Positions 1,058 to 35,011 of a stretch of 45,019 nt of DNA are shown in pieces. Each line of letters begins with the position of its first letter. The stretch's first letter is position 1. The stretch lies in the sequence record MZ234008.1. The stretch is one strand, 5' to 3'. Source of the stretch: Escherichia phage vB_EcoS-22664B1. Under the pieces are notes generated by a model. That model searched no databases. It had not been told where the DNA came from and worked only from the letters and a program-made list of their open reading frames with translations. Both the position numbers and the translations under genes were made by a program.

Positions 1058-1578
1058 AATTACTATTCCGCCGTAAATCAGATGGCTATATCCTGAAGCC
1101 GATCCAGACCTTATCGAACTGGGTACGCCTCCACCACGTTGCAAGCGATAAAGTCTGGTGGGCGACTAAGGCAAAGCTGCCGGAGTACTACGAAATCCTC
1201 ACACACGATATCGAGCGCGGCGATGTGCTGCGGGATATTCGCGACGGGCAATTGTGGGTCGTGGAATACGTGGGTCGGCACGGCCTGCGTATGAAGTCCT
1301 GCAAGGATGTCGTAGCGGGCAACATGGTCACGGGCATGACGTACTTCGGGCTAATCCACTACGAACGAGTGGGCCGCAAATCCCAGCCAGCGTATGCGAC
1401 CTACGACGCCCGCCAGGTGCAGGCCAGACTTAACAAGGCCACGCATGAGATAATTAATCACGTTGATGCCGTGACGAATGCGCAGCGCATGGCCCGCGAA
1501 TACGGCGTAGGATTCATCCGTGTCGAGCAAGACGGCAGCATGTCCGCTATAGACCCGCGCTCGGTAATACTGAAATGA
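1054..1578 (+). CDS. hypothetical protein, paralog family member 3
   Basis: Contains GDVLRDIRDGQLWVV and HYERVGRK segments paralogous to 713..1057. Confidence 0.55.
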   Translation: MKLLFRRKSDGYILKPIQTLSNWVRLHHVASDKVWWATKAKLPEYYEILTHDIERGDVLRDIRDGQLWVVEYVGRHGLRMKSCKDVVAGNMVTGMTYFGLIHYERVGRKSQPAYATYDARQVQARLNKATHEIINHVDAVTNAQRMAREYGVGFIRVEQDGSMSAIDPRSVILK

Positions 1579-1718
1579 GCGCGACTATCCGTGATATGCT
1601 TATGCATAACCGCTTTGAGATAGGCGGGCGAGTATTCTGCAATTACTTCGTGGCGCGTGCTTGGGCGCGCCATATCGGAAAACCAGTAGGGGCAATACGA
1701 TGCTACACGATTTGATAT
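1575..1718 (+). CDS. small hypothetical ORF (47 aa)
   Basis: ATG overlapping stop of preceding gene; short, overlaps next gene start; weak support. Confidence 0.25.
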
Positions 1719-1987
1719 TTTGGTTTGGTTTGGGGTGTGCGTCACTCTTTGTTGTGGTGCTGGCGCTGTTGGTATGGCTATTCCTGGTATGGCCCGCGGT
1801 GGAAGCTGCCAGCATTACCCGCATGACGTTCCAGATATACAAGCGCCGTGGCATAACGGAACACCCGACCAGGTTGCGCATGTGGTGGCTATGGTATCTG
1901 GATATGCTTGGAGGTCGGAGGTTTGAGGCCGTCCGGTCATCCGGGTGGGAATGGAAAGGCGTAGGCAAGTGGTCCATTTTCGATTAA
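1700..1987 (+). CDS. small membrane protein
   Basis: Start MLHDL with AGGGG RBS-like sequence 8 nt upstream; long hydrophobic stretch FWFGLGCASLFVVVLALLVWLFLVW; followed by terminator. Confidence 0.5.
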   Translation: MLHDLIFWFGLGCASLFVVVLALLVWLFLVWPAVEAASITRMTFQIYKRRGITEHPTRLRMWWLWYLDMLGGRRFEAVRSSGWEWKGVGKWSIFD

Positions 1988-2004
1988 ATATGCAAGCGTG
2001 ATAT

Positions 2005-2039
2005 AGTCCCAGTGAGCTAAAACTTACTGGGACTTTTTT
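2005..2039 (+). terminator. rho-independent terminator (agtcccagt...actgggact + T-run)
   Basis: 9-bp inverted repeat followed by TTTTTT directly read from sequence. Confidence 0.6.
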
Positions 2040-2330
2040 ATGGATAAGCTAAACGAGTGGTTATTCGCCCTCGCGTGTCTTGCAGGTGGCTTCGTTGGCG
2101 CTCGCATTCACGGTGAGGCAACGAAAGGGCCACTAAACTTTGTGCTGTTTATCGTGGTCGGCTTCTTGTGTGCCGTGTTCGGTGCACCTGCTATTGCTGA
2201 GTGGTTTAATCTAACCGGACCGAGAACTGTTGCCGGGCTTGGCTTCGTTACTGCCATCTTCTGGATGCCGGTAGCTGCCAGAATCCGTGAAGCAATTTCC
2301 TCGTTCCGTCTGCCGGGGAATGCAAAATGA
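2040..2330 (+). CDS. holin-like small membrane protein
   Basis: 96 aa, two to three hydrophobic helices, immediately upstream of endolysin; function by position. Confidence 0.5.
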   Translation: MDKLNEWLFALACLAGGFVGARIHGEATKGPLNFVLFIVVGFLCAVFGAPAIAEWFNLTGPRTVAGLGFVTAIFWMPVAARIREAISSFRLPGNAK

Positions 2331-2566
2331 TTATCGCCATCCTGTTATTAGTGATCGGGGCTTCGTCGCTGTATAACGTATACGCGCCATCCGTCCAGGA
2401 TGGCATTTGCGGACGGGTGCTCTACCTGCTTACAGCAATGACCTGTATTATTGGCCTGATGCAAACGGGGGACGTATCGAATACAGTCTGGTCCGTGCTA
2501 ATCTGGCTATTCGCATTACGCACACTGCGTAATGCTGTTTTAAATGGGGTAAAACATGCGATTTAG
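2327..2566 (+). CDS. holin/antiholin-like small membrane protein
   Basis: 79 aa, two hydrophobic helices, ATGA overlap with previous gene and overlap with endolysin start. Confidence 0.5.
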   Translation: MIIAILLLVIGASSLYNVYAPSVQDGICGRVLYLLTAMTCIIGLMQTGDVSNTVWSVLIWLFALRTLRNAVLNGVKHAI

Positions 2567-3047
2567 TGACAACGGTCTAAGATTTACGGCAGCGTGGGAG
2601 TCGTTCAGCCCAGTGCCGTATTTCGCGACTAAGAAGGAGCAGGCCCGCGGCTTGTACACCTGGGGCTACGGTCATACTGGCACTAATCCGCCACAGAGCA
2701 TTACCCGCGCGGAAGCGCTGGAGCTACTCAAGCGTGATGTGGCGTATGCCGAGAACTGGGTGAACAAGTACGCACACCCGAGCATCAATCAGGCGCAATT
2801 CGACGCGCTGGTGGATCTGGTAATCAATGCCGGTCAAGGTCCGATCGTACCGGATAACATTGCCAATGACTTCGATGACGCGGTGCGCCTGGGTGATTGG
2901 GCCAAAGTCCGTGCTACGCTGCCGCAGTTCCGCAAGCAAGGCGGTGAAGTGCTCAAGGGCCTGGTACGTCGTGCAATCGGCAGACAGGCGCTATTCGATG
3001 GTAAGCAGTGGGACGTTGCCGAGAAAATCGGTCGTAACGCGGCATAA
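2556..3047 (+). CDS. endolysin, lysozyme-like (GH24/T4-lysozyme-type muramidase)
   Basis: Motif ...WESF...GLYTWGYGHTG... resembles phage lysozyme catalytic region (E ... GYGHTG); located after holin candidates. Confidence 0.75.
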   Translation: MRFSDNGLRFTAAWESFSPVPYFATKKEQARGLYTWGYGHTGTNPPQSITRAEALELLKRDVAYAENWVNKYAHPSINQAQFDALVDLVINAGQGPIVPDNIANDFDDAVRLGDWAKVRATLPQFRKQGGEVLKGLVRRAIGRQALFDGKQWDVAEKIGRNAA

Positions 3048-3063
3048 TAAGAGGAAACACAGT

Positions 3064-3231
3064 ATGTTAAAAAGTATTCTTGATCATAACGCGGACGCGC
3101 TTGCCGCACTGGCTAAAACGGAAGACCCAGGCGCGCGCGCCATTATCGCGGACACTATCAGTCATGCGGGTGTCTTTGACGTGAAGCTGCCAAGCCCGCC
3201 ACCGCCGGAAGAACCAGGCCCAGCGGCATAA
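3064..3231 (+). CDS. hypothetical protein (55 aa, proline-rich C-terminus)
   Basis: AAGAGGA RBS-like sequence before ATG; followed by terminator at 3237-3262. Confidence 0.4.
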   Translation: MLKSILDHNADALAALAKTEDPGARAIIADTISHAGVFDVKLPSPPPPEEPGPAA

Positions 3232-3236
3232 ACACG

Positions 3237-3262
3237 AAGCCCGGTTAATTCCGGGCTTTTTA
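3237..3262 (+). terminator. rho-independent terminator (aagcccgg ttaatt ccgggctt ttttt)
   Basis: Perfect stem-loop plus T-run. Confidence 0.65.
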
Positions 3263-3265
3263 TTG

Positions 3266-3295
3266 CTTGACTTGCAACCAACATAAGGGCCATAC
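3266..3295 (+). promoter_or_regulatory. putative sigma70-like promoter (-35 TTGACT, 18-nt spacer containing TGCAACCAA, -10 CATACT)
   Basis: Hexamer matches read from sequence; spacer carries the recurrent GCAACCAA motif, with a second copy just downstream. Confidence 0.35.
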
Positions 3296-3327
3296 TGCAA
3301 CCAATCAACGAGAAGGAGTAATACACT

Positions 3328-3408
3328 ATGACACGCAATGATATTTATGTACTGGCAATCTGGTCCGCCGCCGCATTCATCGGTATGGCTATTTGCGAAT
3401 TGCTATAG
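3328..3408 (+). CDS. small hydrophobic peptide (26 aa, MTRNDIYVLAIWSAAAFIGMAICELL)
   Basis: Strong RBS-like GAGAAGGAG 8 nt upstream of ATG; not in ORF track because under 60 aa. Confidence 0.3.
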   Translation: MTRNDIYVLAIWSAAAFIGMAICELL

Positions 3409-3470
3409 CCCGCCGCCATAGGGACCGTGGTATATTGTCCTCGGTCCTCTCAATCAGGAAGTAAATTAAT

Positions 3471-4668
3471 ATGCACCCGCAAACTAAAATTACCGACGAG
3501 CAATTGATCGCTGAATTGCAATCTGGCACTACCTCGAAAGATATTGCGAAGAAATACGGCATTGCCCTTCGAAATGTCTATATGCGCAAAGCCCGCCTGT
3601 CGAAGAAAGGCATTGGTCACGGTAACGATGCCGTAATCCGTAAGCGCGTTGCCGATGGCTTCGGCGTTAAGCGTGTATCAGCCCTGGTGCGCGGCAATGG
3701 CGAAGAGGTCATGTCCTGGGTCATCACCGAGCAAGACAAGGAGCGCCAGCTTGAAGCAATGCGCGCCGTTGTCGAGGGCATGAATAGCGAAATCACACCG
3801 GCAGCACCAGTGAGCGCTCCGCCAGTCCCGATCCAGGCGCTTGACCTGCTTAACCTGTATACCGTGTCGGACTTCCACCTGGGAATGTTGGCGTGGGGCG
3901 AGGAGACTGGCGAGGACTGGGATATGGCAATCGCTGAAGACCTGTTCTACCGCTGGTTTGTCGAAGCCTTCGCCCGCGCACCGGACGCTGGAAGACCTGT
4001 TCTACCGCTGGTTTGTCGAAGCCTTCGCCCGCGCACCGGACGCTGGCACTGCCGTAATCAATATTCTCGGTGATATGGCGCATTTTGACAGCCTCGACGC
4101 CGTCACGCCAGCCAGTGGTCACGTACTGGACGCAGATACCCGCTACCAGAAACTGGTCCGCTACATGATTCGCATGGTGCGCAACGTGGTTGAACTGGCG
4201 CTGCAAAAACACCATAAGGTCAAACTGTTAATCGTCCAGGGTAATCATGATGAGTCCGGTATGATTTGGCTGGCTGAGATGTTCAATACCCTGTACGAGA
4301 ACGAGCCGCGCGTTGATGTGGACACGTCCCCGGACGTTTACAAAATGGTGCAGCACGGTAAAACAACGCTGTTCTTCCACCACGGACACAAAGCACGCTT
4401 TGACGCCATCGAACCGGTCATGATTTCTAAATTCAGACAGGCTTTCGGGTCCAGTGAGTACAGCTACGCGCACGTGGGCCACTTGCACCACCAGAAGATT
4501 GTTGAATCCCGCAACATGATTGTTGAACAGCACCGGACCCTTGCCGCGAAAGACGCATATGCGAGCCGCGGCGGTTGGATGTCTGGTCGTAGTGCTAACG
4601 TCATCACCTATAGCGCCAACTACGGCGAAGTAGCGCGCTTAACCATTAGCCCGGAAATGTTGAAATGA
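3471..4668 (+). pseudogene. HTH domain + calcineurin-like metallophosphoesterase gene, split by a 55-bp tandem duplication (frameshift)
   Basis: N-terminal HTH-like segment; metallophosphoesterase motifs SDFHLG, GDMAHFD, GNHDE, HHGH, GHLHH. ORFs 3471..4073 and 3841..4668 are the same gene in two frames; removing one 55-bp copy (3936-3990 or 3991-4045) restores one ORF of about 380 aa. Confidence 0.6.
3936..4045. repeat. perfect tandem duplication, 2 x 55 bp
   Basis: Unit gaagacctgttctaccgctggtttgtcgaagccttcgcccgcgcaccggacgctg occurs twice in tandem; cgctg microhomology at the junction. Confidence 0.9.
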
Positions 4669-4877
4669 TTAGACAAGTATTCATGAGCACGCAGGCCACC
4701 CGCCTGAAAGAGCTTCGCAAACAGCTTGAAGGCTTGCGCCGATTCGAACGAACGGCAGCGGCAATAGGCATGTCTATCAGTGAGCGGATCGAGATACTAT
4801 CGCAGATACGCTACACAGAAGGCGCTATAAGCGAAGTAGAAAGCATGTTGACCAGATACTACGGTCGAGCCGTTTAA
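4665..4877 (+). CDS. hypothetical protein (70 aa)
   Basis: ORF overlapping previous stop (ATGA); followed by terminator. Confidence 0.45.
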   Translation: MIRQVFMSTQATRLKELRKQLEGLRRFERTAAAIGMSISERIEILSQIRYTEGAISEVESMLTRYYGRAV

Positions 4878-4884
4878 CCCTCCC

Positions 4885-29619: not shown

Positions 29620-30142
29620 TTATTTAAGTGCGCTAGTCACCAGTGTTTTTTCCATGTTGCGGAAGTCTTCCGGCGTCATGAGAATTTTGGACCCATCCTC
29701 GCCAGTGAGCACGACCATAGGCTGGACTTCTTGATCTACCACACCGAAATTGGCGGCGTTAACCATCTTGCCAGCAGATGACGAAGGATGCCACGCACCG
29801 GCAATGTCAAGGGGCCAACCCTTGAGGCTGTCGAATTGCGCTGCCGTTGTATCGATCTGAATCTCATCATGCACGGTCATGTGCGACTCACCCAGTAGTG
29901 CGGCATACGCAACCAGGTCAACAATATTGTCTTCCTGGTGCTTACGGTGCTGGCGCACCAGCTTCAGGCAGATCAGGAAGGTCCAGGCTTCTTGCTCTGT
30001 AAGGTCGCGACCGGTAAGCGCGTTAAACACGGCAGCGATTTGCTTCGCGCTGCGTTCTTCTTTCGCGTTATCATAGCCGTTCTCTTTCCCGCGCTGTTCC
30101 ATAGTGGTGGCGGCGTTCTTGCAGTATTCAAATGCTTTCATG
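29620..30142 (-). CDS. hypothetical protein (174 aa)
   Basis: Start MKAFEY with AAAAGGAAAA upstream; preceded by putative promoter 30187-30216. Confidence 0.5.
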
Positions 30143-30186
30143 ATGTTTTCCTTTTTAGTGGGGGCCGGATTGCCCCCGACGAGATA

Positions 30187-30216
30187 ACTATAGTGCAACC
30201 AACCTATTGGTTGCAA
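30187..30216 (-). promoter_or_regulatory. putative sigma70-like promoter (-35 TTGCAA, 18-nt spacer, -10 TATAGT) overlapping palindrome TGCAACCAA-ccta-TTGGTTGCA
   Basis: Read on - strand; perfect 9-bp inverted repeat at 30194-30216 inside the spacer region. Confidence 0.4.
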
Positions 30217-30674
30217 GTAAATTTTGCTACGTTTATAGAATAAATTTTAGGGACCAGATCGCTGCACGCCCGACGGATGGCTTCGATATTCTTCGGGCAG
30301 TCTTCAATGATGACCAGTTCCGACACGTCCGCATAGCACACCATTTTGAACACAGCGCACGCCTTAAACTCTGGCGGAGGGGTGTCGTCCAGCATGTGGC
30401 GCATGAACAACCGGCCCGTCGGGAATACTTCCAATTGCTTGGCGGTCGTGTCCCAGCATTCGCGCTGCCGGTTAGTCAGATACGCTATCTCGAAGCCTTG
30501 CTCTTTGTACATGCGCAGCAGCGGCAGCATATCCATGTTAAGGTCTTCGCGTACGTGTGCTTTGTGCCACTTCGCCCAAAAGGTTGATTTGGTTTTTATG
30601 CCGGGCACCAGGTCAGCACGCGCATCACTTGAACCATTAATAACGCCATCCAGATCACAAATCAGTAGTTTCAT
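30204..30674 (-). CDS. HAD-superfamily phosphatase-like protein
   Basis: N-terminal motif LICDLDGVIN (DxDG), later LTNR and C-terminal Asp-containing segments typical of HAD phosphatases/nucleotidases. Confidence 0.5.
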   Translation of the reverse strand: MKLLICDLDGVINGSSDARADLVPGIKTKSTFWAKWHKAHVREDLNMDMLPLLRMYKEQGFEIAYLTNRQRECWDTTAKQLEVFPTGRLFMRHMLDDTPPPEFKACAVFKMVCYADVSELVIIEDCPKNIEAIRRACSDLVPKIYSINVAKFTCNQ

Positions 30675-30895
30675 TTTAAGCTCTCAATAAGGGTGTAGCG
30701 GGCGCTTCGCGCAGTAACGGAGTTGCATACAAAATGGCAACGCTTGGTTATGACAAGCCAGCCGGTGAGGTCCAGGCCCAGGATGTATTCCGGGCGGCTG
30801 GCGCGCATCACTCGGTCGCGGCGCGGGTCAATGATGAAGTCCCTTTGCATTTGGTCCACTACCGCGGGGTCGCGGTCAACGATTAAGATATTCAT
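30671..30895 (-). CDS. hypothetical protein (74 aa)
   Basis: ORF with overlapping stop/start couplings to both neighbours. Confidence 0.4.
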   Translation of the reverse strand: MNILIVDRDPAVVDQMQRDFIIDPRRDRVMRASRPEYILGLDLTGWLVITKRCHFVCNSVTARSARYTLIESLK

Positions 30896-31361
30896 GTAGT
30901 TCTCTCTCGCTCATTATTTCAATTTGTGCGCTGCCGATGGGCGGCGCTTCGTCAAATATTATCAATTGCTGGCACTTGTTATTGCTCGGCCCAACTTCGC
31001 CGGTCACAGCATGGATAAATCGCACACGCCAGTCCAGAAGAATTATCATATTGGCAGTCTTCCGGGCCAGCTTCGCCCACTTCGTTGACGTGTCCTGATT
31101 CAGTAGCATGACAGTACGGCGTCCGTGCGCAGCGCACTCGACCCACGGCAGCGGATCGGAGTACGGCGGGTTGCACCACTTCCACCCTTTCAACTCTGAC
31201 CAGTCCGCATCAAGCGCGCTATGCTCTGCCGTGAAGTAGCGCGGTAGCAGGTGATTGGCGTCGCTTGCAGCCATATCGTAACGAAATCGGTACTTACGGC
31301 GCAGCGGTTTAAATAAAGCTGGCGGAGTGCGCCAGCTATCCTTTTGCTCACTCTTCTGCAT
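30876..31361 (-). CDS. DNA N6-adenine methyltransferase (phage Dam-like)
   Basis: Motifs WRTPP.LF, RF.YDMAAS..N, YFT and CNPPYS match the phage N6-adenine methyltransferase family (motif IV NPPY). Confidence 0.75.
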   Translation of the reverse strand: MQKSEQKDSWRTPPALFKPLRRKYRFRYDMAASDANHLLPRYFTAEHSALDADWSELKGWKWCNPPYSDPLPWVECAAHGRRTVMLLNQDTSTKWAKLARKTANMIILLDWRVRFIHAVTGEVGPSNNKCQQLIIFDEAPPIGSAQIEIMSERELHEYLNR

Positions 31362-31812
31362 GGTCGGTGTCTATCGCGTAAAGGGCAATCTTTTCCCCTT
31401 TCTTCAGGATTCGCTGCAATCGCTGCGTCTCCGACACCCCCAAAGGGCGCGCGTCCGGGTAGAAGTTGCCGTTTGTTGGGTGTCGCCACGCCATAAGCAC
31501 CAGGTCTTTACGGGCGACCGCGGACTGGCGGCCCTTCGGACGCACGTACGCCTCGGCACGTTTGCAATGCTCACGCAGACCTTCAGCCGTCATGCGATTA
31601 AGCACCGCGGTGGTTGTGTATCCGGTGCGCTGCATAATCCCCATCAGTTCGAACAGCAGTTCGAAGCGCTCCTCTAACTCCTTGCGCACCTTCTCCTCAC
31701 CTTCATAGCTCGCAAGGTAGGTGTCTGCCAGCGCGTTCGCGCGTTCGGCCTGTTCGCGGGCTTCGAGGCACTGCGCGGCCCAGTAATTTTTCTCTTCTTG
31801 TAAAATTTTCAT
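31348..31812 (-). CDS. hypothetical protein (154 aa, coiled-coil-like N-terminus)
   Basis: Intact ORF in operon. Confidence 0.45.
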   Translation of the reverse strand: MKILQEEKNYWAAQCLEAREQAERANALADTYLASYEGEEKVRKELEERFELLFELMGIMQRTGYTTTAVLNRMTAEGLREHCKRAEAYVRPKGRQSAVARKDLVLMAWRHPTNGNFYPDARPLGVSETQRLQRILKKGEKIALYAIDTDHAEE

Positions 31813-32055
31813 TTATTTAAGCTCCGTAGTGCGGATTTCATCGCGTGGGATAAATTTGCCGTCCATCTCTACCCAGCAAACACCGTAGCGCCATTGGGTA
31901 TTACGGCCTGTTTGCTCGGCGTACACGGTCTGGCATTCGTAGCGGTCGACGTAGTAAATAGCCGTAGAAGGGATACCAATACAACCGGCAAACATGAGGG
32001 TTAGTATTACCCAAAATCGAAGGTCGCCATCGTAGTCGAAAAACAATGATTTCAT
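31813..32055 (-). CDS. small membrane protein (80 aa)
   Basis: Start MKSLFF with GGAGAC RBS-like sequence; hydrophobic helix FWVILTLMFAGCIGI. Confidence 0.45.
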   Translation of the reverse strand: MKSLFFDYDGDLRFWVILTLMFAGCIGIPSTAIYYVDRYECQTVYAEQTGRNTQWRYGVCWVEMDGKFIPRDEIRTTELK

Positions 32056-32073
32056 CGTAATGTCTCCAGGTAT

Positions 32074-32101
32074 TAAAAAGGGCGTCCAACCGGACACCCT
32101 T
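32074..32101 (-). terminator. putative - strand terminator/attenuator hairpin (gggtgtcc ggtt ggacgccc + U-run)
   Basis: Hairpin followed by T-run when read on - strand; lies between genes 32136..32459 and 31813..32055. Confidence 0.35.
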
Positions 32102-32135
32102 AAGATAATGCAACCAATCTAATTACGCAACCAAT

Positions 32136-32459
32136 TTATTCATAAAAATTTGGGTCGCGCGCTACGTCTACCAGATACAAGTTGCTCATGCGGTTGCCGT
32201 AGTGCCCTGGCGTGCGCTGGCGGCACACAACGGCGAAACCTGGAGGGATTGTATTGCCCGTCTCGATAATCCACGCCACGCGCGCGCCAGACAGCGTCTT
32301 GCCGTTGCATTCGATACGCGTACCGCCATCGGCAGTGTTAAGGTTGCCAATCTTGCAGCCGGTAGACTTCAGACGGATGACGCCGGTCTTACTGTCGTAG
32401 GTGAATAGTTGGTTAGTCATTGCTACCGAGAAGTCGATGGCTTCGAATGTAGTATTCAT
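32136..32459 (-). CDS. HNH-like endonuclease (putative)
   Basis: Motif ...ARVAWIIETGNTIPPGFAVV...GNRMSNLYLV resembles the HNH/AP2-type homing endonuclease pattern (G..IP.G..V.H.DG...NN...NL.LV) but lacks a clear His-Asp pair. Confidence 0.35.
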   Translation of the reverse strand: MNTTFEAIDFSVAMTNQLFTYDSKTGVIRLKSTGCKIGNLNTADGGTRIECNGKTLSGARVAWIIETGNTIPPGFAVVCRQRTPGHYGNRMSNLYLVDVARDPNFYE

Positions 32460-33151
32460 TTTAAATTTTCCTCATTGACTGCAATTGCGAAGCCGCGCGG
32501 AGTGAGCGACCGGATTAATTTGGTGCGGGCAGATTTGCCACCGAGGCGACTATACTGCTTCGAGTACCCTTTTTCAACGAATACCGGCTTTTTCTCCGGC
32601 ATACGAAAGCCATTGCCGGTCCATAAACAGGTCAGCTTTGGATATGAATCGCGGTCGTTGATGTATTCCGGGAACAACGGATGTACGTCATCCTCCGGCA
32701 GATAGCCGCCATACTCCCACGGATCAAACGAGTGGTCTGGCTTGCGCCACTGGGTGGATAGCACACTGCGCGGATTCTCAATCATATATGGCACTTCAAA
32801 GAAGTCACCCAGGTAAGCGGCAATCTTCGCGGTGCGCACTGCCTTAAGCTGAAAGGCGGGGTCTTTCGCACGCTTGCACGGGAAAGCTGTCGCACCGCTC
32901 ACCGCCAGATCCGTACACGGCGGAAACGCGTAGATAATATCCGGCGTGCCGAAATCGCCATTCATCGCGCGGTCCACGAAGTCCAGATCGATAAACTCGT
33001 TACGATAGCGGATACCGCGACCATAAATCCGGTAGTCAAGGTAAGACCCGTGATCGGCTTCCGAGTAGTTGAAACAGTAGCATTTATGCCCCATCTCGGC
33101 AGCGCGCTCTATCATCAAGCCGCTGCCGTCAAATAATGACCAGATAATCAC
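32456..33151 (-). CDS. DNA cytosine-C5 methyltransferase-like protein (putative, short)
   Basis: Motif I-like SLFDGSG, motif IV-like FPPC, motif VI-like ENP; only 231 aa, so domain completeness is uncertain. Confidence 0.4.
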   Translation of the reverse strand: MIIWSLFDGSGLMIERAAEMGHKCYCFNYSEADHGSYLDYRIYGRGIRYRNEFIDLDFVDRAMNGDFGTPDIIYAFPPCTDLAVSGATAFPCKRAKDPAFQLKAVRTAKIAAYLGDFFEVPYMIENPRSVLSTQWRKPDHSFDPWEYGGYLPEDDVHPLFPEYINDRDSYPKLTCLWTGNGFRMPEKKPVFVEKGYSKQYSRLGGKSARTKLIRSLTPRGFAIAVNEENLK

Positions 33152-34572
33152 TTGCGCACCTTCTTAGCTTTCATGTATTCCATCAAGTCGTCCTGGATGT
33201 CGCGCTTACCATCGCGGCGGTCCGCCACCAGTTCGTCCAGTGTCCCGCGTGCCTGGATAATATAGACGAATACCGGTCGAGGGTGCCCGGCTTGCATCTG
33301 GCGAACTGGCCCGATACGCTCCACGATCTGCGCAAAGTGCTCATAGTTCCACGTATCCGAGAAGATAGCCAGGTGATGACCGCCGTCCTGCAAGTTAAGG
33401 CCGTGACCAGCCGATGCCGGGTGTGCGAACATGATGGGAATCTCTCCCCTGTTCCACGCTTCCATATCCTTATTGCCCTGCTTACCCTTACCCATCGCAA
33501 CGCCGTGGGGAAACTTCTTCTTCAGACGTGCCAGGTCGTGCTTGTACTGGTACGCAACGAGCAACGGCGCTCCGTTCAACTCCTCTACGATACTTTCCAG
33601 CGCGTCCAGCTTGGCGTCGTGAATCTTCTCCCACTCGTCGGTCCGCTCTCCGTCTTCGTCCACCTTATACACGGCACCGGATGCAAGCTGAAGGCACTTG
33701 ATGGTCTTAGCCGCAGCGTTCGCCGCTTCCACTGTTCCGCTTTCCAGTTCGGCAAATAGCTCACTCTCAAACTGGTCATAAATCTTGCGGGCTTTCTTCG
33801 GCAGGTCCACGACAACCGGCGTGTAGATTGGCTTGTCACATCCGAAGTATTCAGCCGCGTCCACGGTAAGGGATACATCGGACAGGCGCTGTTGGATCTC
33901 CTTCTCGGAGTTCTTTAGCGGGGCGTGCTGCATAGTGAAGCTGCCTGGCTTAACAGGCTTGCTAATAAACCAGCGATCGGTGAATGCCTTATAGCTACTG
34001 CCGAGTCGTTCGCCACCGTCGACAAACCACGTCTGGCCCCATAGGTCTTTCAGTCCGTTTGGTGCTGGTGTGCCGGTCAGGTTAATCCAGCGCCTGACGT
34101 GCTTATGTGCGATCGCCGCCAGTGCGCGTGCGCGCTTACTGCCTTGCTTGCTGCGATAGCCTTTCAGCTTAGTGGATTCATCGGCAACAACGACCGTAAA
34201 AGGCCACTCGTCGCCGCAATACTCGACAAGCCACTCAACAACATCGTAGTTGACACAAACCACGTTAGCGTTGCTCTCAAGCGCCGCAATGCGGTCCTTC
34301 TCTGGCCCGGTGCCGTCTACTACCAGCAGGGCGGGGAATCTCCATTTTTCTTGTTCCGGGGGCCACGTACCGGACGCAACGCGCAGCGGGGCCAGCACCA
34401 GTACGCGGTCCTCCTGGTTGGACAGGATGCCAGTCTGGAACATTTTGTTTAGCGCCCACATAGTCGCGCCGGTTTTACCGGACCCCATTGTCGCCCAAAT
34501 ATTGCAGCGCTCATGCTTGAGAATAAACGCGGTTATCAATTTCTGATATTCGCGACGTCGGAATCGTGCCAT
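33148..34572 (-). CDS. SNF2/SF2-family helicase (ATPase)
   Basis: Walker A ATMGSGKTG, DExx-like VVADESTKLKG, C-terminal helicase motifs HGLNLQ and QIVERIGPVRQ; start taken as MARFRRREYQ. Confidence 0.8.
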   Translation of the reverse strand: MARFRRREYQKLITAFILKHERCNIWATMGSGKTGATMWALNKMFQTGILSNQEDRVLVLAPLRVASGTWPPEQEKWRFPALLVVDGTGPEKDRIAALESNANVVCVNYDVVEWLVEYCGDEWPFTVVVADESTKLKGYRSKQGSKRARALAAIAHKHVRRWINLTGTPAPNGLKDLWGQTWFVDGGERLGSSYKAFTDRWFISKPVKPGSFTMQHAPLKNSEKEIQQRLSDVSLTVDAAEYFGCDKPIYTPVVVDLPKKARKIYDQFESELFAELESGTVEAANAAAKTIKCLQLASGAVYKVDEDGERTDEWEKIHDAKLDALESIVEELNGAPLLVAYQYKHDLARLKKKFPHGVAMGKGKQGNKDMEAWNRGEIPIMFAHPASAGHGLNLQDGGHHLAIFSDTWNYEHFAQIVERIGPVRQMQAGHPRPVFVYIIQARGTLDELVADRRDGKRDIQDDLMEYMKAKKVRK

Positions 34573-34576
34573 ATCT

Positions 34577-34801
34577 TTATTCCGCCTTTTTCCAGACTTC
34601 GGTTTCACTGTTCCAATTCCTCTTTGTGGCGTCGTAGTTGGTGGCGTGTCCAATGTGCACACCGGTCGCGCGGAAGCTCTTAAACTTCTGCCAGCACACT
34701 GTCAACGGCAGCGGGTAATTCATGCCTGCGATAAACCATACGCGATCGCCAGGTTTGCACTCGCCCAGCTTGGTGAGTCGGTAATGTTCTTTCATCGTCA
34801 T
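34577..34801 (-). CDS. hypothetical protein (74 aa)
   Basis: Intact ORF in operon. Confidence 0.4.
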   Translation of the reverse strand: MTMKEHYRLTKLGECKPGDRVWFIAGMNYPLPLTVCWQKFKSFRATGVHIGHATNYDATKRNWNSETEVWKKAE

Positions 34802-34837
34802 GCCTCCAAAAATGGCGGGACAAGCCCGCCGTATTGA

Positions 34838-35011
34838 TTATTCTTGTTCTGCGCGATAGCGGCGCTGCCGTTCACGTTCTTTCTTATTGCGGCACGATTT
34901 GCACTCGGCCCGATGCCCGTCTGGACTGCGCGCAGTCTTTCCGGTGTATTTGTGGAACTGGGATAGCGGCTTGATGCATCCGCAATTACTACAACGTTTT
35001 TCTTCAATCAT
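34838..35011 (-). CDS. small zinc-ribbon-like protein (CxxC...CxxC)
   Basis: Start MIEEKRCSNCGC...; two Cys pairs (CSNCGC and CKSCRN) and basic C-terminus. Confidence 0.4.
   Translation of the reverse strand: MIEEKRCSNCGCIKPLSQFHKYTGKTARSPDGHRAECKSCRNKKERERQRRYRAEQE

What the first reader, a model, noticed from the sequence alone, without database searches (positions are those of the whole stretch)
30876..33151. DNA-modification and nuclease cluster: Dam-like methyltransferase, C5-methyltransferase-like protein and HNH-like gene
A clear phage Dam-type N6-adenine methyltransferase (motif IV NPPY) is followed within about 1.5 kb by a short protein with C5-cytosine methyltransferase-like motifs (FDGSG, FPPC, ENP) and an HNH-like ORF between them. 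Two different methylation specificities would give broad anti-restriction protection. The C5-like protein is unusually short, so it may be a truncated or novel modification enzyme.
Basis: partly seen in the sequence, partly recalled or inferred. Interest (0 to 1): 0.45.

Follow-up and report, generated by a model that had tools for sequence, protein, structure and literature searches.

The report
Known phage Dam and Dcm-like methyltransferases
This stretch of an E. coli Dhillonvirus phage genome carries two ordinary, already annotated DNA methyltransferase genes, one for adenine and a compact one for cytosine, with a decayed, probably inactive HNH-nuclease relic between them; it is not a truncated or new enzyme.

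Summary
All the ORFs and motifs exist at the stated coordinates, on the minus strand. The window is 100% identical over the 5 kb tested to Escherichia phage vB_EcoS-101114B2 (genus Dhillonvirus).

- **Dam-like gene (30876-31361):** a clear Pfam PF05869 phage N6-adenine methyltransferase (E 4.9e-36) with NPPY.
- **HNH-like ORF (32136-32459):** a relic of an HNH_3 endonuclease. It has lost both signature histidines and the AP2 domain. It is fixed in nearly all Dhillonvirus genomes, so it is probably not an active or mobile nuclease.
- **"Broad anti-restriction protection":** not supported. Near-identical BASEL phages remain restriction-sensitive.

Verdict: already known, low interest. The only open point is the true sequence specificity of the compact enzyme.

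The parts
33148..34662 (-). SNF2-family DNA helicase gene. It lies directly upstream and its stop overlaps the start of the Dcm-like gene by 4 nt (GTGA). Context only, not part of the modification function.
   Evidence: PF00176 at 1.2e-10 and phrog_62 at 6.4e-156. Overlap read.
32456..33151 (-). Compact Dcm-like C5-cytosine DNA methyltransferase (231 aa). Motif I-like FDGSG at 7-11, catalytic Pro78-Cys79, Glu125-Asn126-Pro127, conserved Lys172 and Arg214. It has no separate target-recognition domain.
32136..32459 (-). Degenerate HNH_3-like ORF (107 aa), translationally coupled to the Dcm-like gene by an ATGA overlap. It lacks the signature histidines and an AP2 domain, so it is probably non-catalytic.
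   Evidence: phrog_99 at 3.7e-15. No Pfam hit even at E<=10. Alignment with bona fide HNH_3+AP2 endonucleases. Present in about 157 of 160 Dhillonvirus records. Overlap read.
32110..32135 (-). Pair of ATTGGTTGC motifs immediately downstream of the HNH-like stop codon. They are copies of a Dhillonvirus-specific intergenic motif and are presumed regulatory.
   Evidence: 15 copies in the window against 0.5 expected. The same positions are conserved in phage Oekolampad. The motif is at chance level in Drexlerviridae phage KarlJaspers.
32072..32101 (-). Terminator-like hairpin with a 10-bp stem followed by UUUUU, separating the helicase/Dcm-like/HNH-like block from the downstream block that ends with Dam.
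   Evidence: RNA fold. The hairpin is present in both the MFE and the centroid structure; the z-score of the whole 101-nt segment is only -1.73. Function is inferred only.
31813..32055 (-). Small ORF (80 aa from the ATG at 32055) with one hydrophobic segment (WVILTLMFAGCIGIPSTAI). Function unknown.
   Evidence: phrog_18961 at 1.7e-51, function unknown. Kyte-Doolittle maximum 1.85 over 19 residues. Annotated as a 243-bp gene in Oekolampad.
31348..31812 (-). 154-aa ORF with a coiled-coil-like N-terminus, function unknown. The PHROG label 'DNA ligase' has no support here.
   Evidence: phrog_10530 at 1.7e-92. No Pfam or NCBIfam hit. Only insignificant coiled-coil hits in the PDB.
30876..31361 (-). 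Phage Dam-like N6-adenine DNA methyltransferase (161 aa) with NPPY at residues 64-67.
   Evidence: PF05869 at 4.9e-36, 124.4 bits against a cutoff of 28.1, covering 5-153 of 169 profile positions. phrog_111 at 1.9e-54. TIGR01712 scores 86.2 bits, below its 97.05 equivalog cutoff. Homologs in 1,746 phage records.

Best explanation
The region is part of the leftward replication and nucleotide-metabolism gene block of a Dhillonvirus. It encodes two independent, orphan, SAM-dependent DNA methyltransferases.

1. **Compact Dcm-like enzyme.** The 231-aa protein is a minimal C5-cytosine methyltransferase. Inferred from the family mechanism, it flips out a target cytosine, Cys79 (Pro-Cys motif) attacks C6, Glu125 (Glu-Asn-Pro motif) protonates N3, and the methyl group of SAM is transferred to C5. 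It has only the catalytic Rossmann domain and, like the DNMT3 catalytic domain it most resembles, almost no target-recognition domain.
2. **Dam-like enzyme.** The 161-aa PF05869 protein methylates adenine N6, using its NPPY motif to hold the flipped base.

Both would mark newly replicated phage DNA. The likely sites, by analogy with characterised relatives, are CCWGG-type and GATC-type. This would shield the DNA only from restriction enzymes blocked by those particular methylations, which is narrow rather than broad protection. The cytosine enzyme also makes the phage detectable by retron Ec86/Eco1, which senses methylation of its msDNA.

The ORF between them is a decayed HNH_3 endonuclease relic that has become a fixed, translationally coupled small gene. 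It most likely no longer cuts DNA.

Shown here: gene identities, fold, conserved catalytic residues, family size, synteny and fixation. Inferred: actual methylation of this phage's DNA, the site specificities and the biological pay-off.
For: Identity of the phage:
- The 5-kb region is 100% identical to vB_EcoS-101114B2, and 160 phage records match it, most of them named Escherichia phages plus records named Dhillonvirus.

Dam-like enzyme:
- PF05869 at E 4.9e-36 with near-full profile coverage, plus NPPY.
- 40% identical to the PF05869 Dam of Edwardsiella phage eiAU.

Dcm-like enzyme:
- phrog_757 at 5e-82.
- AF2 model with pLDDT 90.5 and pTM 0.89.
- Foldseek top hits are DNMT3A/3B catalytic domains, and 53 PDB hits have E<=1e-3.
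- A profile-versus-PDB search aligns FDGSG and PPC in register with M.HaeIII motifs I and IV, though at a non-significant E of 1.
- 29 of 44 relatives hit PF00145, best E 1.3e-6.
- Across 97 representatives at 31-54% identity, Cys79 is kept in 95 of 98 sequences and Glu125 in 97 of 98 (the 97 representatives plus the window copy), and Asn126, Pro127, Lys172 and Arg214 are also conserved.
- 53% identity over the full length (E 6e-85) to KarlJaspers Bas06 Dcm. Its residues C82, E128 and K175 align with C79, E125 and K172 here.
- The K42 Dcm raised 5mC in Ec86 msDNA by LC-MS, and the C82A/E128A/K175A/K176A mutant did not (bioRxiv 10.1101/2023.08.16.553469). The preprint gives K42's genome as 95.4% identical to Bas06.
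- Pantoea phage AAS23 carries a cytosine methyltransferase described in the same terms (no conserved domain by BLASTP, cytosine methylases by HHpred), and its DNA behaves as Dam- and Dcm-methylated on digestion (PMC8004638). I did not check that it belongs to this family.

Operon structure:
- 4-nt overlaps link helicase to Dcm-like and Dcm-like to HNH-like.

Narrow protection:
- The BASEL papers describe Dhillonvirus phages as restriction-sensitive or only moderately resistant.

HNH relic:
-.
Against: - No methylation data exist for this phage, and none can be produced with these tools.
- The window's Dcm-like copy has no Pfam PF00145 hit even at E<=10 and no significant pairwise similarity to E. 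coli Dcm. 'Dcm-like' is therefore a functional label only.
- The CCWGG specificity was assumed rather than mapped in the K42 preprint. Its own control, dcm+ MG1655 without the phage enzyme, showed low msDNA 5mC. This hints that the phage enzyme differs from host Dcm in substrate or site.
- The fourth residue mutated in K42 (K176) is Leu173 here.
- The motif II acidic residue, Asp in 89 of 98 sequences (97 representatives plus the window copy), is Asn28 here. KarlJaspers Dcm shares that Asn.
- Site frequencies give no signal: CCWGG observed/expected 0.92 and GATC 0.71.
- E. coli K-12 already has Dam and Dcm, so the selective benefit of phage copies is not demonstrated.
Confidence: 0.8

Rival explanations
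1. The C5-like gene is a truncated or decaying remnant of a normal-sized C5-methyltransferase and is inactive.
For: At 231 aa it is shorter than the classical bacterial C5-methyltransferases that come up as structural matches here (about 320-390 aa). It has no Pfam PF00145 hit.
Against: Lengths of 210-260 aa are the norm across 2,881 homologs and 1,921 clusters at 50% identity. The catalytic Cys, Glu and other residues are conserved down to 31% identity. The model is compact and confident over the whole chain. A preprint reports that the 236-aa Dcm of phage K42 is active; the window protein is 53% identical to the equally long Dcm of K42's close relative KarlJaspers. The gene is translationally coupled within an operon.
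Confidence: 0.02
2. The compact enzyme is a C5-methyltransferase-fold protein with a different chemistry or target than CCWGG 5mC. Possibilities include another sequence motif, low sequence specificity, a preference for hairpin or single-stranded DNA, or transfer of a group other than methyl.
Against: LC-MS identified 5mC against a standard. Mutating the CCTGG site of the msDNA abolished defence. AAS23 DNA, from a phage that may carry a related enzyme, behaves as Dcm-methylated with EcoRII.
Confidence: 0.2
3. The methyltransferases do not mainly serve anti-restriction. Instead they serve phage DNA transactions such as timing of replication or packaging, avoidance of host mismatch repair or Vsr repair, or gene regulation.
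For: They sit inside the replication block next to the helicase, polymerase and phosphatase genes. The K-12 host already has Dam and Dcm. BASEL found no simple link between methyltransferase genes and restriction resistance, a statement made for Drexlerviridae.
Against: There is no direct evidence for any such role. The restriction-modification (RM) systems tested in BASEL are, to my knowledge, not ones blocked by GATC or CCWGG methylation, so they do not test the anti-restriction role. Orphan phage methyltransferases are classically protective (review cited in PMC8004638).
Confidence: 0.25
4. The HNH-like ORF is an active homing or other HNH nuclease, so the cluster is a modification-plus-nuclease unit.
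For: phrog_99 'HNH endonuclease' at E 3.7e-15. Relatives annotate it as an HNH or homing endonuclease. His86 in a Gly-His-Tyr insertion is invariant.
Against: There is no PF13392 hit even at E<=10. Aligned with true HNH_3+AP2 enzymes, the AHR histidine is Ala and the catalytic DH histidine is Cys, or Leu in relatives. The chain ends 13 residues after the NL motif and has no AP2 domain. The ORF is fixed at one position in about 157 of 160 genomes, unlike mobile homing genes.
Confidence: 0.1

Closest known systems
Phage K42 / KarlJaspers (Bas06) Dcm, the trigger of retron Ec86 (Eco1) (bioRxiv 10.1101/2023.08.16.553469)
   Same: Same compact family. The window protein is 53% identical over the full length to KarlJaspers Dcm (231 vs 236 aa). 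It has the same Pro-Cys, Glu-Asn-Pro and Lys residues, with C82/E128/K175 there aligning to C79/E125/K172 here, and the same DNMT3-like predicted fold.
   Different: The host phage family differs (Drexlerviridae versus Dhillonvirus). K176 is Leu173 here. In Bas06 the Dcm and Dam genes lie about 6 kb apart and tblastn finds no HNH-like homolog in that genome. No experiment has been done on the Dhillonvirus copy.
DNMT3A/DNMT3B catalytic domain and classical bacterial C5-methyltransferases (M.HhaI, M.HaeIII; Pfam PF00145)
   Different: Only 10-16% identity. This copy has no PF00145 hit. There is no separate target-recognition domain. Motif I glycine 9 is not conserved in the family. Motif VI reads ENP rather than ENV, and motif IV reads PCT rather than PCQ.
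E. coli Dcm (CCWGG C5-methyltransferase, 472 aa)
   Same: The presumed reaction (5mC) and, by assumption in the literature, the presumed site.
   Different: No significant pairwise similarity (best E 0.49). The window protein is half the length. It is an analogue or distant superfamily relative, not an orthologue.
Phage Dam family PF05869 (e.g. the Dam genes of Stx-converting phages, HK97 and T1-like phages)
   Same: Pfam hit far above threshold, NPPY motif and a similar small size. 36% identity to the Stx-phage and HK97 homologs and 30% to the KarlJaspers Dam.
   Different: It scores below the TIGR01712 equivalog cutoff (86.2 vs 97.05 bits). GATC specificity is known, from my memory of the literature, for a few members only and is untested here. 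PF05869 is, from my own knowledge and not tested here, a Pfam family separate from that of E. coli Dam.
HNH_3 + AP2 phage homing endonucleases (PF13392; e.g. Xanthomonas phage Xop411 p17)
   Same: Shared N-terminal scaffold: Y-D/N-P-x-T-G, R-x-A-W and N-R-x-x-N-L.
   Different: Both signature histidines and the AP2 domain are missing, and there is no Pfam hit. The ORF is fixed in the genus rather than sporadic.
Edwardsiella phage eiAU module (helicase, gp31, methyltransferase, N6-adenine methyltransferase)
   Same: Syntenic block containing a helicase, an HNH-like homolog (41% identity), a C5-methyltransferase and a PF05869 Dam (40% identity).
   Different: The eiAU C5 enzyme is a 330-aa PF00145 protein with no detectable sequence similarity to the compact one. 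It lies after rather than before the HNH-like gene. This looks like a non-orthologous replacement.

Membership tests
C5-cytosine DNA methyltransferase superfamily (PF00145 / DNMT fold) | SAM-dependent Rossmann-like catalytic fold shared with solved C5-methyltransferases | tested here: met
C5-cytosine DNA methyltransferase superfamily (PF00145 / DNMT fold) | Motif IV Pro-Cys catalytic nucleophile | tested here: met
   Pro78-Cys79. Cys is invariant in 44 close relatives and present in 95 of 98 sequences (97 representatives plus the window copy).
C5-cytosine DNA methyltransferase superfamily (PF00145 / DNMT fold) | Motif VI Glu-Asn-Val glutamate | tested here: met
   Glu125-Asn126-Pro127 (ENP variant). 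Glu is present in 97 of 98 sequences.
C5-cytosine DNA methyltransferase superfamily (PF00145 / DNMT fold) | Motif I F-x-G-x-G SAM-binding loop | tested here: inconclusive
   FDGSG is present in this copy, but Gly9 is not conserved in the wider family, where the pattern is F/Y-D-x-T/S-G.
C5-cytosine DNA methyltransferase superfamily (PF00145 / DNMT fold) | Separate target-recognition (small) domain between motifs VIII and IX | tested here: not met
   The whole protein is 231 aa and forms a single compact domain in the model. Only about 30-40 partly lower-confidence residues (about 180-210) lie where a target-recognition domain would sit.
C5-cytosine DNA methyltransferase superfamily (PF00145 / DNMT fold) | Significant match to the Pfam PF00145 profile | tested here: not met
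   No hit for the window protein even at E<=10. 29 of 44 relatives hit at E<=1, best 1.3e-6.
C5-cytosine DNA methyltransferase superfamily (PF00145 / DNMT fold) | Formation of 5-methylcytosine in DNA | not testable with these tools
   Reported by LC-MS for the Dcm of phage K42; the window protein is 53% identical to the Dcm of K42's close relative KarlJaspers. Nothing has been done for this phage.
Compact phage Dcm-like family (phrog_757; K42 / KarlJaspers Dcm) | Full-length homology and a length of about 210-260 aa | tested here: met
   phrog_757 at 5e-82 over residues 1-229. 53% identity and E 6e-85 to the Bas06 Dcm over 231 of 236 aa. Family lengths.
Compact phage Dcm-like family (phrog_757; K42 / KarlJaspers Dcm) | Residues mutated in the inactive K42 enzyme (C82, E128, K175, K176) | tested here: met
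   C79, E125 and K172 are conserved. The K176 equivalent is Leu173 here; across the wider family this position is Lys in 45 of 98 sequences.
E. coli Dcm orthologues (CCWGG-specific) | Significant sequence similarity to E. coli Dcm | tested here: not met
   The best BLASTP HSP has E 0.49.
E. coli Dcm orthologues (CCWGG-specific) | CCWGG site specificity | not testable with these tools
   The site was assumed rather than mapped in the K42 preprint. CCWGG observed/expected is 0.92 in the window, which is uninformative.
Phage Dam family (Pfam PF05869) | Profile match above the gathering threshold with near-full coverage | tested here: met
   124.4 bits against a cutoff of 28.1, covering residues 3-144 and profile positions 5-153 of 169.
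Phage Dam family (Pfam PF05869) | Motif IV (D/N)PP(Y/F) | tested here: met
   NPPY at residues 64-67.
NCBIfam TIGR01712 phage_N6A_met (equivalog) | Score at or above the curated equivalog cutoff | tested here: not met
   86.2 bits against a cutoff of 97.05.
HNH_3 endonucleases (Pfam PF13392) | Profile match and the signature and catalytic histidines of the beta-beta-alpha-metal core | tested here: not met
   No Pfam hit at E<=10. In the alignment with two PF13392 proteins the AHR histidine is Ala59 and the DH histidine is Cys79, or Leu in relatives. The structure model was unusable, with pLDDT 42.8.
Homing endonuclease genes (mobile) | Sporadic presence or absence among closely related genomes | tested here: not met
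   The ORF is found in about 157 of the 160 phage records that match the region. In every record where the position was examined it lies next to the Dcm-like gene.

The most novel reading that the evidence does not exclude
The compact family is very widespread, with 1,510 phage records and about 1,900 clusters at 50% identity. It lacks a target-recognition domain and is missed by Pfam and NCBIfam for this copy. It may not simply duplicate host Dcm. It could have its own, still unmapped recognition mode: a different or relaxed motif, or a preference for hairpin or replicating DNA. The K42 control hints at this, because dcm+ cells did not methylate the retron msDNA. In Dhillonvirus the translationally coupled, catalytically dead HNH_3 relic could act as a DNA-binding partner.
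Probability: 0.2. Interest if true: 0.45.

Novelty: already known. Interest (0 to 1): 0.13.

Why it matters
The finding matters little in itself. Both methyltransferases are annotated in near-identical genomes, and a member of the compact family has been reported to be active.

Three practical points follow:
- The 'hypothetical protein' label on this gene in the identical GenBank record (MZ234014) could be upgraded.
- Phages carrying this gene are predicted to be detectable by retron Ec86/Eco1, which is present in E. coli BL21. That is relevant to host choice and phage therapy design.
- The true site specificity of this very common minimal C5-methyltransferase is still unmapped. One bisulfite or EM-seq experiment would settle it.

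Tried and rejected
- **Sequence searches against the PDB.** The Dcm-like, Dam and HNH-like proteins gave no significant hits. The A1 profile gave only M.HaeIII at E=1.
- **Pfam at E<=10.** The four unassigned ORFs returned nothing.
- **Profile-profile comparison.** hhalign of the family profile against the single eiAU PF00145 methyltransferase returned only a spurious 29-column match with probability 1%. A single-sequence template is too weak.
- **AlphaFold model of the HNH-like ORF.** The alignment held only five near-identical sequences, the mean pLDDT was 42.8 and the model was unusable, so no fold search was run on it.
- **Searches for distant relatives of the HNH-like ORF.** An iterated homolog search with an alignment including eiAU gp31 found only 10 proteins, none a canonical HNH enzyme. 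The link to real HNH_3 enzymes came from weak tblastn hits instead.
- **Restriction-site statistics.** CCWGG 0.92, GATC 0.71, GGCC 0.70, GAATTC 0.33 and CTAG 0.26 of Markov expectation do not discriminate between specificities.
- **Truncation or pseudogene.** Rejected on family length and conservation.
- **HNH-like ORF as an obligate partner of the compact methyltransferase.** Rejected. The ORF occurs in 162 phage records against 1,510 for the methyltransferase.
- **The 154-aa ORF as a DNA ligase (PHROG label).** No support was found.


Full report
**What the window is.** A megablast of 30000-35000 gives 100% identity over all 5 kb to Escherichia phage vB_EcoS-101114B2 (MZ234014). It gives 97% identity to the BASEL phages Haito_Bas83 and RuthEpting_Bas85, and about 90% to many other Dhillonvirus phages. 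In all, 160 phage records match and 151 of them cover at least 80% of the query. The finding lies in the long minus-strand block of replication and nucleotide-metabolism genes. That block runs from about 42 kb down to a bidirectional terminator-like hairpin at about 29.0 kb.

**Observation check.** All features are present on the minus strand.
- 33148-34662: SNF2 helicase.
- 32456-33151: 231-aa C5-like protein, with FDGSG at 7-11, FPPC at 76-79 and ENP at 125-127.
- 32136-32459: 107-aa HNH-like ORF.
- 31813-32055: 80-aa ORF with one hydrophobic segment.
- 31348-31812: 154-aa ORF.
- 30876-31361: 161-aa Dam-like protein, with NPPY at 64-67.

The helicase, C5-like and HNH-like genes are linked by 4-nt GTGA and ATGA overlaps. 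In transcription order the C5-like gene comes first and Dam last.

**The Dam-like gene.** Pfam PF05869 (DNA N-6-adenine-methyltransferase, Dam) matches at E 4.9e-36. The score is 124.4 bits against a cutoff of 28.1, over profile positions 5-153 of 169. phrog_111 matches at 1.9e-54. The NCBIfam equivalog TIGR01712 scores 86.2 bits, below its 97.05 cutoff. The protein is therefore a family member but not a curated equivalog. tblastn finds homologs in 1,746 phage records, including Stx-converting phages and HK97 at 36% identity. It is 40% identical to the Dam of Edwardsiella phage eiAU and 30% identical to that of KarlJaspers.

**The C5-like gene: family and length.** The protein hits nothing in Pfam or NCBIfam, even at E<=10, and nothing in the PDB by sequence. 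It does match phrog_757 'DNA methyltransferase' at 5e-82 over its whole length.
- A homolog search returns 2,881 proteins. Nearly all complete ones among those listed are 225-250 aa, and a few carry precomputed PF00145 hits.
- An exhaustive profile search of 1.84 billion cluster representatives returns 1,921 clusters at E<=1e-3, with typical lengths of 210-260 aa.
- tblastn finds the gene in 1,510 of 50,697 phage records. These span small siphoviruses of Escherichia and Klebsiella, rV5-like and T4-like myoviruses, and phages of Salmonella, Vibrio and Campylobacter.

The short length is therefore the family norm, not a truncation.

**The C5-like gene: fold and active site.** An AlphaFold2 model built on 44 relatives is confident (mean pLDDT 90.5, pTM 0.89).
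- Foldseek against the PDB puts the DNMT3A and DNMT3B catalytic domains first, at E about 1e-6.
- The family profile against the PDB weakly aligns FDGSG and PPC with motifs I and IV of M.HaeIII in the correct register, at a non-significant E of 1.
- 29 of 44 relatives hit PF00145 at E<=1, best 1.3e-6.
- In the viral structure library the nearest neighbours are other 225-aa phage 'DNA-cytosine methylases' (TM 0.8-0.9), followed by ordinary viral C5-methyltransferases.

Across 97 family representatives that are only 31-54% identical to the window protein, these positions are kept in at least 89 of 98 sequences (the 97 representatives plus the window copy): Pro77, Cys79, Gly86, Lys93, Glu125, Asn126, Pro127, Arg136, Asp168, Tyr170, Lys172, Thr174, Trp177 and Arg214. 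Gly9 of 'FDGSG' is not conserved. Asn28 is Asp in 89 of 98 sequences. The protein is a minimal C5-methyltransferase catalytic domain without a separate target-recognition domain. That explains why the DNMT3 catalytic domain, the classical enzyme with the smallest such domain, is its best structural match.

**Experimental anchor from the literature.** A preprint on retron Ec86 (bioRxiv 10.1101/2023.08.16.553469) reports the following.
- Escape mutants of Drexlerviridae phage K42 map to a 711-bp dcm gene. K42's genome is given as 95.4% identical to KarlJaspers Bas06.
- Expressing this Dcm raises 5mC in msDNA by LC-MS.
- A C82A/E128A/K175A/K176A mutant does not.
- The authors superposed the AlphaFold model of this Dcm on DNMT3A.

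The 711-bp 'Dcm-like C5 cytosine methyltransferase' gene of KarlJaspers encodes a protein 53% identical to the window protein over its full length (E 6e-85). C82, E128 and K175 align with C79, E125 and K172; K176 aligns with Leu173. The window gene therefore belongs to a family for which activity has been reported.

Independent workers made a similar inference for Pantoea phage AAS23 gp52. BLASTP found no conserved domain, HHpred matched cytosine methylases, and the DNA behaved as Dam- and Dcm-methylated on digestion (PMC8004638). I did not verify that gp52 belongs to this family. Close Dhillonvirus relatives already annotate the gene as 'Dcm-like C5 cytosine methyltransferase'.

**A caveat on specificity.** There is no significant pairwise similarity to E. 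coli Dcm (best E 0.49). The K42 preprint took CCWGG from E. coli Dcm rather than mapping it. Its empty-vector control in dcm+ MG1655 showed low msDNA 5mC. The real recognition mode of the compact family is therefore still open. Site statistics in the window do not help: CCWGG is at 0.92 of expectation and GATC at 0.71.

**The HNH-like ORF.** phrog_99 'HNH endonuclease' matches at 3.7e-15, but no Pfam model matches even at E<=10. The profile finds nothing in the PDB. An AlphaFold model was unusable, with pLDDT 42.8.
- Homologs are essentially confined to Dhillonvirus, plus Edwardsiella phage eiAU gp31 at 41% identity.
- Weak tblastn hits from the eiAU-group protein (eiDWF gp31) led to genuine HNH_3+AP2 endonucleases: Xop411 p17 and a Klebsiella phage protein, with PF13392 at 2.4e-15 and 1.8e-19.
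- In the joint alignment the scaffold is shared: Y-D-x-x-T-G, R-x-A-W and N-R-x-x-N-L. The 'AHR' histidine is Ala here. The catalytic 'DH' histidine is Cys, or Leu in relatives. The chain ends 13 residues after N-L and there is no AP2 domain.
- The ORF occurs in about 157 of the 160 phage records that match the region. In every record where the position was examined it lies next to the Dcm-like gene. Mobile homing endonuclease genes are distributed sporadically.
- It is present in only 162 phage records against 1,510 for the compact methyltransferase, so it is not an obligate partner.

The best reading is a domesticated, probably non-catalytic relic. An active nuclease cannot be excluded without biochemistry (about 10%).

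**Function of the pair.**
- The first BASEL paper describes Dhillonvirus and Drexlerviridae as restriction-sensitive compared with deazaguanine-modified phages. For Drexlerviridae it states that no simple pattern links methyltransferase genes to restriction resistance (PMC8594841).
- The second BASEL paper describes Bas83-85 as showing 'only moderate sensitivity' or 'moderate resistance' to RM systems (PMC11990801). The Bas83 Dcm-like protein is 99.6% identical to the window copy.

Two site-specific methyltransferases can only block enzymes whose sites overlap theirs. The cytosine enzyme also has a cost: the K42 preprint reports that 34 of 35 Ec86-sensitive phages encode such a Dcm.

**Module structure.** Between the HNH-like gene and the next ORF lie two copies of ATTGGTTGC and a terminator-like hairpin with a 10-bp stem followed by U5. 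The two methyltransferase genes may therefore belong to separately controlled sub-units of the block. In Edwardsiella phage eiAU the syntenic block reads helicase, HNH-like gp31, a 330-aa PF00145 methyltransferase, then PF05869 Dam. That C5 enzyme shows no sequence similarity to the compact one, so it looks like a non-orthologous replacement at a conserved position.

**Verdict.** The two methyltransferases are real. The C5-like protein is neither truncated nor new. The nuclease is probably dead. The protection is narrow. The finding is already known and of low interest. The one residual question of some value is the unmapped specificity and substrate preference of this very common minimal C5-methyltransferase.

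Noticed in passing
window 70, 101, 635, 3297, 10786, 10800, 26908, 30206, 32110, 32127, 35068, 41867, 44683, 44718, 44999: The 9-mer ATTGGTTGC (usually ATTGGTTGCA) occurs 15 times against 0.5 expected, and none of 100 shuffles reaches 15. The copies examined lie in gaps between ORFs or at ORF ends, often in pairs about 14-35 nt apart just upstream of gene starts. The copy at 30194-30215 forms a palindrome with a one-mismatch partner. The equivalent positions are conserved in phage Oekolampad, and the motif is at chance level in Drexlerviridae phage KarlJaspers. It is probably a Dhillonvirus-specific operator or promoter element.
   Followed up: partly
window 32072-32101 (-): A terminator-like hairpin (AAGGGUGUCC-GGUU-GGACGCCCUU followed by UUU) lies between the HNH-like gene and the next ORF. 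It overlaps the long GTG-started version of ORF 31813-32097. This argues for the shorter ATG start at 32055, as annotated in Oekolampad.
   Followed up: partly
window 31348-31812 (-): This 154-aa ORF matches phrog_10530, labelled 'DNA ligase', at 1.7e-92. It has no Pfam or NCBIfam hit and only insignificant coiled-coil hits in the PDB. The ligase label looks like an annotation artefact, one that has been propagated into Bas83 and Bas85.
   Followed up: partly
L005 (Edwardsiella phage eiAU, KF772233) 1352-4882: A syntenic module reads helicase, HNH-like gp31, a 330-aa PF00145 C5-methyltransferase, then a PF05869 Dam. The C5 enzyme is unrelated in sequence to the compact Dhillonvirus one (E 0.14), while Dam (40% identity) and the HNH-like ORF (41% identity) are homologous. 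This suggests non-orthologous replacement of the cytosine methyltransferase at a conserved locus.
   Followed up: partly
window 32456-33151 (-), residue 28: The motif II acidic residue is Asp in 89 of 98 aligned sequences (97 representatives plus the window copy) but is an invariant Asn in the 44-sequence subfamily that includes this phage. KarlJaspers Dcm also has Asn.
   Followed up: partly
bioRxiv 10.1101/2023.08.16.553469 (K42 Dcm), relevant to window 32456-33151: In dcm+ E. coli MG1655 the retron Ec86 msDNA had low 5mC unless the phage Dcm was expressed, although the presumed target is a CCTGG site. The compact phage enzyme is therefore not simply redundant with host Dcm. Its site specificity was assumed, not mapped.
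   Followed up: no
BFVD hits A0A6J5SE15 (1397 aa) and A0A6J5NPY6 (1126 aa): In uncultured phages, the window protein's model matches part of two very large proteins with good TM-score (0.65, 21-27% identity). One of them is annotated 'Helicase/UvrB, N-terminal'. In the window the same two functions are encoded by adjacent, overlapping genes.
   Followed up: no
window 29620-30674 (-): Downstream neighbours are a HAD-superfamily phosphatase-like ORF (30204-30674; PF03767 below cutoff, phrog_415 'polynucleotide kinase') and a DUF6378 protein (29620-30216). The PHROG labels on the DUF6378 protein's secondary hits read 'phosphofructokinase', which is implausible.
   Followed up: no
whole window: Short palindrome statistics against a Markov expectation: CTAG 0.26, GAATTC 0.33 (3 sites against 9 expected), GATATC 0.63, GGCC 0.70, GATC 0.71. 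CCWGG (0.92), CCGG and GCGC are near expectation.
   Followed up: no
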